A stretch of 9,806 nucleotides of DNA from Escherichia coli (GTDB lineage: Bacteria; Pseudomonadota; Gammaproteobacteria; Enterobacterales; Enterobacteriaceae), in the NCBI RefSeq assembly GCF_003334355.1, contig NZ_QOWP01000058.1; one strand, written 5' to 3'. A program made the translations under genes and the position numbers. Position 1 is the stretch's first letter; each line of letters opens with the position of its first letter. The notes under the pieces were generated by a model that was not told the DNA's origin, did not search any database, and saw nothing but the letters and a program-made list of their open reading frames with translations. Shown one piece after another: positions 8,837 to 8,875 of this stretch.

Positions 8837-8875
8837 AAAGCCGAAATCATTTATATAAATGATTTCGGCTTTTTT
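8837..8875 (+). terminator. Rho-independent terminator after yehE (36-bp perfect palindrome plus T-run)
   Basis: AAAGCCGAAATCATTTATATAAATGATTTCGGCTTT (8837-8872) is a perfect palindrome; 8870-8875 is a run of six T. Begins 30 nt after the yehE stop. Confidence 0.6.

What the first reader, a model, noticed from the sequence alone, without database searches (positions are those of the whole stretch)
8837..8872. 36-bp perfect palindrome between yehE and yehD
AAAGCCGAAATCATTTATATAAATGATTTCGGCTTT is perfectly self-complementary and is followed by a T-run on the plus strand. It most simply acts as the yehE terminator, but a palindrome of this length and perfection could also be a protein-binding site or an attenuator that gates read-through into the fimbrial operon.
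Basis: seen in the sequence. Interest (0 to 1): 0.3.

Follow-up and report, generated by a model that had tools for sequence, protein, structure and literature searches.

The report
Ordinary terminator hairpin after yehE
The 36-base perfect palindrome is real, and it is best explained as the ordinary factor-independent transcription terminator of the small gene yehE, conserved as an RNA hairpin in several enterobacterial genera, so it is not a new kind of element.

Summary
Window 8837-8872 is a perfect 36-bp palindrome. The longest perfect palindrome in 1000 dinucleotide shuffles of the window had a half-length of 11, against 18 here.

As + strand RNA it folds into an 18-bp hairpin of about -22 kcal/mol. 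Four G-C pairs at its base abut UUUUUUAUU. It starts 30 nt after the yehE stop codon and is the strongest hairpin-plus-T-run site in the window.

The stem is kept by compensatory changes across E. coli alleles, E. albertii, E. whittamii, E. fergusonii, Citrobacter farmeri, Salmonella and Superficieibacter. Eight of 13 core pairs change on both sides, and 97% of cells pair. The T-run is kept in every Escherichia allele. The perfect centre is found only in the K-12-like allele.

Published Term-seq data for MG1655 list an RNA 3' end on this strand inside the element, in LB OD 2.0 and in M63. That end lies at window 8862, within the 3' arm rather than in the U-tract, and I could not explain this.

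I found no conserved alternative helix (which argues against an attenuator), no conserved half-site sequence (against an operator) and no second copy per genome (against a repeat family).

Verdict: a canonical intrinsic terminator that makes yehE a monocistronic unit. Interest is low.

The parts
8837..8872 (.). 36-bp perfect DNA palindrome (the finding)
   Evidence: Sequence read; the repeat finder I1; exact single match; shuffle test (half-length 18 against at most 11).
8835..8874 (+). RNA hairpin with an 18-bp stem and a 4-nt loop (8853-8856). The core stem is 8840-8852 paired with 8857-8869, with four G-C pairs at the base. A-tract/U-tract pairs extend it.
   Evidence: RNA fold -23.6 kcal/mol in a 61-nt context, z = -7.3, 0 of 200 shuffles as good. 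The same helix is the only varying helix in the RNAalifold consensus. Covariation.
8870..8878 (+). U-tract UUUUUUAUU directly after the G-C base of the stem
   Evidence: Sequence. A T-run of 5-7 followed by A is present in all 15 Escherichia alleles.
8862..8862 (+). Published Term-seq 3' end (MG1655 coordinate 2192460, minus strand), inside the 3' arm: ...AUAUAAAUGA^UUUCGGC
   Evidence: Adams et al. 2021, PMC7815308, supplementary file 1; coordinate conversion.
8526..8807 (+). yehE (93 aa, DUF2574/YehE family), the gene this terminator ends
   Evidence: ORF; translation; annotation; Pfam PF10836 on homologues.
8808..8834 (+). Spacer between the stop codon and the hairpin; variable, with 2-nt and 7-nt indels among alleles
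   Evidence: Alignment A4.
8292..8335 (+). Terminator-like hairpin of the upstream gene apbC/mrp (ATACACCGCA...TGCGGTGTAT followed by UUUGUUUUU). It isolates yehE from apbC.
   Evidence: Fold -20.9 kcal/mol; listed in my hairpin-plus-T-run scan.
9100..9626 (+). yehD (fimbrial subunit), the next gene downstream. In this window its 3' end is cut off by IS1, which starts at 9627.
   Evidence: ORF; IS1 end GGTGATGCTGCCAACTTACTGAT at 9627; annotation.

Best explanation
The palindrome encodes the intrinsic (Rho-independent) terminator of the yehE transcription unit.

Mechanism: when RNA polymerase transcribes 8835-8878 on the + strand, the nascent RNA folds into an 18-bp hairpin. Its G-C-rich base (GCCG/CGGC) is followed directly by UUUUUUAUU. 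Hairpin formation over the weak rU-dA hybrid then releases the transcript. This last step is inferred from the established mechanism of intrinsic termination.

Together with the apbC terminator upstream (8292-8335), this makes yehE a short monocistronic unit. It also shields the H-NS-bound yehD promoter region and the yehDCBA fimbrial genes from read-through.

Shown here: the structure, its selective maintenance, the conserved T-run, the position, and an in vivo 3' end within the element. Inferred: that release happens in the U-tract, and with what efficiency.
For: 1. Anatomy. The 18-bp hairpin has -22 to -24 kcal/mol and z about -7. It has four G-C pairs at its base, then U6AUU. It begins 30 nt after the yehE stop codon. 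It is the top-scoring hairpin-plus-T-run site on either strand of the 9.8-kb window, ahead of the sites after apbC and metG.

2. Selection on pairing within Escherichia. Across 15 distinct alleles, 97.5% of cells pair. Four pairs change on both sides; for example, one position shows GC 8, AU 3, UA 3 and CG 1. No shuffle out of 500 reached the observed pairing or covariation score, and controls with slid partners pair in only 31-56% of cells. RNAalifold finds the same helix on its own.

3. Selection on pairing beyond Escherichia. With homologous hairpins from E. fergusonii, Citrobacter farmeri, Salmonella, Superficieibacter and an unnamed contig added, 8 of 13 core pairs show double changes, 97.4% of cells pair, and no shuffle out of 500 reaches the observed value on any of the five measures.

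4. Hairpins of unrelated sequence. These follow the DUF2574 gene in Citrobacter freundii and in a Superficieibacter locus where that gene is divergent from the fimbrial genes. The hairpin therefore belongs to the small gene, not to the operon.

5. Direction. The + strand T-run (T5-T7) is present in every Escherichia allele, whereas the - strand tail is short and variable. Alleles with G-U wobbles fold better as + strand RNA: ZH193 -18.3 against -11.3, and E. albertii -17.4 against -11.9 kcal/mol.

6. Experiment. Term-seq of MG1655 lists a reproducible 3' end on the yehE strand inside the element in LB OD 2.0 and in M63, but not in LB OD 0.4. A sigma-S ChIP peak lies at the yehE 5' end (PMC4447067).
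Against: 1. The only mapped 3' end is at 8862, inside the 3' arm and 14-17 nt upstream of where a canonical release would fall (about 8876-8879). No U-tract end is in the curated table. That table keeps only the top peak within 100 bp and only uniquely mapped BWA-MEM reads, so absence there is weak evidence.

2. The tool's simple terminator scan did not flag the site.

3. The stem is long and A-U rich in its upper half compared with typical E. coli terminators (my own knowledge, not tested).

4. One homologue (Superficieibacter, L066) keeps the hairpin but has a poor U-tract. One Klebsiella homologue (L067) shows no clear hairpin.

5. No termination assay exists for this site in anything I could search.
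Confidence: 0.85

Rival explanations
1. The hairpin is mainly an RNA processing or stability element. An endonuclease (a single-strand cut by RNase III in the 18-bp duplex, or RNase E at GA^UUU) cleaves inside the 3' arm. This sets yehE mRNA decay or opens the structure. Termination is secondary or partial.
For: - The only mapped in vivo 3' end is at 8862, inside the 3' arm.
- The cut site GA^UUU fits the RNase E motif RN^WUU (recalled from memory, not tested).
- RNase III accommodates about 22 bp and can make single-strand cuts (PMC6212723).
- The upper stem sequence AUCAUU...AAUGAU is nearly invariant across genera.
Against: - An RNA ending at 8862 retains only a 6-bp hairpin of -1.9 kcal/mol, so it is an unlikely stable species.
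- The site is buried in a perfect duplex.
- The conserved T-run has no role in this model.
- The peak may reflect the peak-selection and mapping rules of that study.
- This reading does not exclude termination.
Confidence: 0.1
2. It is a bidirectional terminator. It also stops antisense transcripts that start in the H-NS-bound 'promoter island' upstream of yehD and would run back into yehE and apbC.
For: - The hairpin is equally stable on the - strand in the K-12 allele (-20.6 kcal/mol).
- In O157/Yhl-type alleles the - strand tail is UUUUUAAAU and the fold is -23.5 kcal/mol.
- The yehD/yehE intergenic region is listed among the promoter islands, a set of sites with dense predicted promoters; the table row carries marks in columns I could not interpret, in a section on H-NS (PMC3661553).
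Against: - In the K-12-like allele of this window the - strand tail is UUUCUAAAU, only 4 U in 8, and it varies among alleles.
- Alleles with G-U wobbles lose 5-7 kcal/mol on the - strand.
- There is no convergent gene.
- No - strand 3' end was found in the table near these coordinates.
Confidence: 0.1
3. It is a regulated attenuator. It gates read-through from the yehE promoter into yehDCBA by means of an alternative antiterminator structure or a bound factor.
For: - yehE and yehDCBA are co-directional, and one preprint calls them the yehEDCBA operon (10.1101/2024.06.20.599902).
- The DUF2574 gene lies directly upstream of a fimbrial subunit gene and a chaperone gene in most genera examined.
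Against: - RNAalifold finds no second varying helix. The 27-nt spacer upstream is variable, with 2-nt and 7-nt indels.
- In a 161-nt context the hairpin still forms intact.
- The yehE stop codon is 30 nt from the stem, too far for the terminating ribosome to mask it (inference).
- In one Superficieibacter locus the DUF2574 gene is divergent from the fimbrial genes yet still has its own hairpin.
Confidence: 0.04
4. It is a DNA operator for a dimeric regulator, or a cruciform or H-NS nucleation site. It acts at the DNA level on the yehD promoter.
For: - The dyad symmetry is perfect in the K-12 allele.
- The region lies within an extended, transcriptionally silenced protein-occupancy domain (EPOD) (10.1101/2024.06.20.599902).
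- The AT-rich centre would favour cruciform extrusion (inference).
Against: - Half-site positions are not conserved in sequence. They change together so that complementarity is kept, up to four different pairs at one position. This is not expected for two independently read half-sites.
- G-U wobbles, which are mismatches in DNA, are tolerated.
- The centre is palindromic in only 2 of 15 alleles.
- The site is 228 bp upstream of the yehD start codon.
- No resemblance to any consensus I could recall (not a formal test).
Confidence: 0.03

Closest known systems
Canonical intrinsic (Rho-independent) terminators of E. coli, such as those listed for rpsT and sgrS in the same Term-seq table
   Same: A G-C-based stem-loop followed directly by a U-tract, an A-tract upstream, a position shortly after a stop codon, and pairing kept by compensatory change.
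   Different: The stem is longer (18 bp) and A-U rich in its upper half. In the K-12 allele the palindrome runs through the loop. The published 3' end maps inside the 3' arm, whereas the rpsT and sgrS rows end in or right after the U-tract.
Bidirectional intrinsic terminators (A-tract, hairpin, U-tract)
   Same: Symmetric AAA...TTT flanks. The hairpin is equally stable on both strands in the K-12 and O157-type alleles.
   Different: There is no convergent gene. The - strand U-tract is weak in this allele (4 U in 8) and is not conserved.
Terminator-like hairpins inside chaperone-usher fimbrial operons after the major subunit gene (recalled for pap and fim). A similar hairpin lies after yehD in K-12.
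   Same: A hairpin plus U-run inside a fimbrial gene cluster, which would lower transcription of the genes downstream.
   Different: This one follows the small DUF2574 gene upstream of the major subunit gene. It is also kept where that gene is not co-directional with fimbrial genes.
REP/BIME and other repeated extragenic palindromes
   Same: A palindromic, intergenic sequence located after a gene.
   Different: It is single-copy. Every E. coli genome has one locus only; the 'two places' reported are the palindrome matching itself on both strands.

Membership tests
Intrinsic (Rho-independent) terminator | Stable stem-loop in the nascent RNA with a G-C-rich base | tested here: met
   18-bp stem with GCCG/CGGC at its base; -22 to -24 kcal/mol; z = -7.3; best site in the window.
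Intrinsic (Rho-independent) terminator | U-rich tract immediately 3' of the stem | tested here: met
   UUUUUUAUU at 8870-8878. T5-T7 in all 15 Escherichia alleles. Weaker in Citrobacter farmeri and poor in one Superficieibacter locus.
Intrinsic (Rho-independent) terminator | Lies downstream of a gene, on the same strand, close to the stop codon | tested here: met
   The stem starts 30 nt after the yehE stop codon. Hairpins lie 20-45 nt after the stop codon in 7 of 8 distinct DUF2574 homologue loci examined.
Intrinsic (Rho-independent) terminator | Pairing, not sequence, is what evolution maintains | tested here: met
   8 of 13 core pairs show double changes; 97.4% of cells pair; 0 of 500 shuffles reach the observed values; slid controls pair in 29-47% of cells. 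Within Escherichia.
Intrinsic (Rho-independent) terminator | RNA 3' ends in vivo fall in the U-tract | tested here: inconclusive
   The Term-seq 3' end is on the correct strand and within the element, but at 8862 inside the 3' arm. The table reports only the strongest peak per 100 bp from uniquely mapped reads.
Intrinsic (Rho-independent) terminator | Termination by RNA polymerase alone in vitro, abolished by stem or U-tract mutations | not testable with these tools
   Needs an in vitro transcription or reporter assay.
Transcription attenuator or riboswitch-type gate | Conserved alternative (antiterminator) pairing, or a sensor upstream of the terminator | tested here: not met
   The consensus fold shows only the terminator helix plus an invariant 5-bp helix inside the coding sequence. 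The spacer is variable, with indels. No Rfam family reaches its gathering score.
Palindromic operator of a dimeric DNA-binding protein | Half-site sequence is conserved among orthologous loci | tested here: not met
   Stem positions vary while keeping complementarity. The centre is palindromic in only 2 of 15 alleles.
Repeated extragenic palindromes (REP/BIME, MITE-like) | Many copies per genome | tested here: not met
   One locus per genome in 5313 E. coli genomes; one match in the window at up to 3 mismatches.
Bidirectional terminator | A functional U-tract on both strands and transcription arriving from both sides | tested here: inconclusive
   The - strand tail is UUUCUAAAU in this allele and UUUUUAAAU in O157-type alleles. 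There is no convergent gene and no - strand 3'-end data.

The most novel reading that the evidence does not exclude
The hairpin is more than a terminator. In stationary phase or minimal medium it is cut inside its 3' arm at GA^UUU (window 8862) by an endonuclease. This would make yehE mRNA decay, or read-through into the H-NS-silenced yehDCBA fimbrial genes, a regulated step. The near-invariant upper stem (AUCAUU...AAUGAU) from Escherichia to Salmonella would then be a recognition element and not only a structural one.
Probability: 0.07. Interest if true: 0.35.

Novelty: already known. Interest (0 to 1): 0.1.

Why it matters
It matters little beyond annotation.

- It fixes the 3' boundary of the yehE transcription unit. 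It also argues that yehE and yehDCBA are separate units, not one 'yehEDCBA' operon.
- It offers a clean natural example of stem covariation in a terminator across five genera.
- The practical point for users of the public Term-seq table is that the 'orphan' 3' end at 2192460(-) belongs to the yehE terminator hairpin. Its position inside the stem deserves a check for a processing event or a mapping effect at perfect palindromes.

Tried and rejected
- **Rfam, permissive threshold.** Only sub-threshold hairpin look-alikes (plant and animal miRNA precursors, snoRNAs) appeared, all far below their gathering scores. Rejected.
- **Built-in promoter/terminator scan.** It missed this site and the apbC terminator. 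My own hairpin-plus-T-run scan ranks this site first.
- **Repeat-family idea.** Rejected: single locus per genome. The 'two places per genome' are self-matches on the two strands.
- **Searches of supplementary data for mapped 3' ends or cleavage sites at yehE.**
  - Files held as text but with no match: the TERMITe paper, PMC12207403.
  - No files held as text: PMC6061677, PMC4161252, PMC8848933, PMC9122600, PMC9023263 and the RNase III map PMC6212723.
  - In Adams 2021 a search by gene name found nothing. A search by coordinate did.
- **Genome-contig scan with YehE peptide patterns.** It returned only Escherichia. More distant homologues came from the representative search and contig look-ups.
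- **YehE as a fimbrial subunit relative.** BLASTP against YehD was not significant, and there was no NCBIfam hit. Left open.
- **MAPQ filtering as the cause of the 8862 peak.** Reads holding 30 nt or more of the palindrome gain a second alignment on the other strand. By my rough reckoning of BWA-MEM scoring (from memory) this would not remove most of them, and it cannot create a 3' end. Not adopted as the explanation.
- **Resemblance to Fur, Cra, FNR and IHF consensus sites.** Compared from memory only; none fits in register. This was not a formal test.

Full report
**Observation**

The sequence AAAGCCGAAATCATTTATATAAATGATTTCGGCTTT occupies window 8837-8872 exactly and is perfectly self-complementary.
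- It lies 30 nt after the stop codon of the 93-codon ORF at 8526-8807 and 228 nt before the ORF that starts at 9100.
- Annotated E. coli records name these genes yehE (DUF2574/YehE family) and yehD (fimbrial protein).
- Chance does not give such a palindrome. The second longest perfect palindrome in the window has a half-length of 6. In 1000 dinucleotide-preserving shuffles of the window the longest half-length was 5-11, and in 5000 shuffles of the AT-rich intergenic stretch it was at most 11. The observed half-length is 18.

**Anatomy**

- As + strand RNA the region folds into an 18-bp stem with a 4-nt loop: -23.6 kcal/mol in a 61-nt context, z = -7.3, and none of 200 shuffles folds as well.
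- The base of the stem is GCCG/CGGC, followed directly by UUUUUUAUU. An A-tract upstream pairs with the first U residues.
- The hairpin forms unchanged within a 161-nt context.
- In my scan of the whole window for hairpins followed by a T-rich tail, this is the best site on either strand. It ranks ahead of the sites after apbC (8292-8335) and after metG on the - strand.
- The tool's simple consensus scan missed both this site and the apbC site.
- yehE is therefore bracketed by two terminator-like hairpins.

**Is it a repeat or a known RNA family?**

No to both.
- Of 5426 complete E. coli genomes, 5313 hold the sequence, at one locus each. The 'two places' per genome occur only where the palindrome is perfect and matches itself on both strands.
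- No Rfam family comes near its gathering score.

**Comparative evidence within Escherichia**

I gathered 15 distinct alleles. They came from complete genomes, species-representative genomes and metagenome contigs, and they include E. albertii, E. whittamii and cryptic-clade strains.
- The stem is kept by compensatory change: C-G to U-A at one position in 7 alleles, and G-C, A-U, U-A and C-G all seen at the next.
- Overall, 97.5% of cells pair and four pairs change on both sides. No shuffle out of 500 reaches the observed pairing or covariation score, and controls with slid partners pair in only 31-56% of cells.
- RNAalifold recovers the same helix on its own and finds no other helix that varies.
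- The T-run (T5-T7, then A) is present in every allele. The tail on the opposite strand is short and variable.
- The apical pair is C-G in 8 alleles, U-G in 5 and U-A in 2. The 'perfect' palindrome is therefore a property of the K-12-like allele, not of the element.

**Comparative evidence beyond Escherichia**

A full HMMER search found DUF2574 proteins of 35-53% identity. The sources name them as coming from E. fergusonii, Citrobacter farmeri, C. freundii, Salmonella enterica, Superficieibacter and Klebsiella.
- Their contigs mostly show the order DUF2574 gene, a gap of about 280 bp, fimbrial subunit gene, chaperone gene.
- A hairpin lies 20-45 nt after the stop codon in 7 of 8 distinct loci examined.
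- Five of these hairpins are homologous to the E. coli one and stack on it without gaps. Adding them gives 8 of 13 core pairs with double-sided changes and 97.4% of cells paired. No shuffle out of 500 reaches the observed value on any of the five measures.
- The Salmonella copy is itself a 30-bp perfect palindrome followed by TTTTATTT.
- C. freundii and a second Superficieibacter locus have hairpins of unrelated sequence.
- In that second Superficieibacter locus the DUF2574 gene is divergent from the fimbrial genes. The hairpin therefore travels with the small gene, not with the operon.
- Exceptions: one Superficieibacter hairpin has a poor U-tract, and the Klebsiella locus has no clear hairpin.

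**Which strand, and RNA or DNA?**

- Complementarity-preserving change argues against two protein-read half-sites and for a folded nucleic acid.
- G-U wobbles occur on the + strand in 7 cells, against 3 on the - strand. This is only a weak asymmetry.
- Where wobbles sit in the middle or at the base of the stem, the + strand RNA folds 5-7 kcal/mol better than the - strand RNA.
- The conserved T-run gives the direction. In O157/Yhl-type alleles the element is almost symmetric (UUUUUAAAU on the - strand), so some bidirectional activity cannot be excluded there.

**Experimental evidence found**

Adams et al. 2021 (PMC7815308) list a curated Term-seq 3' end at 2192460(-) in MG1655, in supplementary file 1.
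- It is classed 'orphan'. Average read counts are 190,522 in LB at OD 2.0 and 34,193 in M63 glucose, and it is absent from the LB OD 0.4 sheet.
- I checked the table's format on the sgrS and rpsT rows: 50 nt upstream, the 3'-end nucleotide, then 10 nt downstream.
- I converted the coordinate to window 8862.
- The end is thus on the yehE strand and within the element, but inside the 3' arm (AAAUGA^UUUCGGC), not in the U-tract.
- It is 55 nt past the stop codon, beyond the 50-bp limit that study uses for a 'primary' end. That accounts for the 'orphan' label.
- The study keeps only the strongest peak within 100 bp and only uniquely mapped BWA-MEM reads. A U-tract end may therefore exist without being reported.
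- An RNA ending at 8862 would retain only a 6-bp stem of -1.9 kcal/mol. I cannot say whether this end is a decay intermediate, an endonuclease cut or a technical effect at a perfect palindrome. It stays unexplained.
- The growth-phase pattern agrees with a sigma-S RNA polymerase ChIP peak at the yehE 5' end (PMC4447067).
- The intergenic region downstream is listed as a 'promoter island' (PMC3661553). The locus also lies in a silenced protein-occupancy domain (10.1101/2024.06.20.599902).

**Conclusion**

This is a canonical intrinsic terminator for a monocistronic yehE unit. It is maintained by selection on RNA pairing across at least five genera.
- The attenuator idea has no support: there is no competing helix, the spacer is variable, and the stop codon is too far from the stem.
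- The DNA-operator idea is contradicted by the pattern of variation.
- The finding is ordinary. Its only loose end is the position of the one published 3' end.

Noticed in passing
window 9627-9806: The left end of an IS1 element (GGTGATGCTGCCAACTTACTGAT...) interrupts yehD near its 3' end. No complete E. coli genome has this exact junction in one piece. Twenty-one genomes match both query halves, placing IS1 sequence about 160-330 bp from this stretch of yehD.
   Followed up: partly
L006 (strain SFE8) 437; L060 (strain 2017.15.02CC) 584-1351: Two further independent IS1 insertions lie at this locus. One is inside the 3' arm of the terminator hairpin (after ...GATTTC). The other is in the last codons of yehE, with a 9-bp target duplication CAAACGTCG. 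The AT-rich yehE-yehD region looks like an IS1 target hot spot.
   Followed up: partly
window 8862: The published Term-seq 3' end maps inside the 3' arm of the hairpin, not in the U-tract. It is present in LB OD 2.0 and M63 but not in LB OD 0.4. The cause is unknown.
   Followed up: partly
window 8292-8335: apbC/mrp has its own terminator-like hairpin (ATACACCGCA...TGCGGTGTAT followed by UUUGUUUUU, -20.9 kcal/mol). yehE is therefore insulated on both sides.
   Followed up: yes
window about 4935-4990, - strand: A hairpin AAGGCGCUGC...GCAGCGCCUU followed by UUUCUUU lies just after the metG stop codon. It is probably the metG terminator.
   Followed up: no
L001 4180-4215 (K-12-like strain, yehD-yehC gap; lies beyond the IS1 in this window): A G-C-rich hairpin GGCCGCUAUCCCAUGGCGGCC followed by UUUUAAUUU lies directly after the fimbrial subunit gene yehD. 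It may be an internal operon terminator that lowers expression of the chaperone and usher genes.
   Followed up: no
L032 (metagenome contig OGSN01000001.1): An O157/Yhl-type allele has the whole hairpin and T-run cleanly deleted (…AAAAAGCC|CATAAATG…). It carries three copies, not two, of a 10-nt repeat TTTACGGTAA further downstream.
   Followed up: no
L019, L030, L037, L040: A 7-nt duplication (TTAAGCA) lies in the spacer between the yehE stop codon and the hairpin in some O157-type alleles. This shows the spacer tolerates indels.
   Followed up: no
L070/L071 (Superficieibacter) after 1773: The DUF2574 gene is divergent from the fimbrial genes there. Its terminator-like palindrome AAAGCTGGCAGCATGCTGCCAGCTTT is followed by a long (CTGCTT)n tandem repeat that runs into an assembly gap.
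   Followed up: no
window 8526-8807 (YehE protein): YehE has a signal-peptide-like N-terminus, a 'TATLxINGRISxPTC' stretch that resembles the start of fimbrial subunits, and an invariant C-terminus IVLNRYD. BLASTP against YehD is not significant and there is no NCBIfam hit.
   Followed up: partly
window 1054-4848 (- strand) and 40-1044 (- strand): A single intact 1264-aa ORF lies where MG1655 has yehF plus the yehH pseudogene. The following ORF is only 334 aa, where MG1655 has the roughly 1200-aa yehI. The window therefore does not come from K-12.
   Followed up: no
window 8877-8886: A second small perfect palindrome, TTGATATCAA, lies directly after the T-run. It forms part of the imperfect 32-nt extension of the dyad (81% complementary) reported by the repeat finder.
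   Followed up: no
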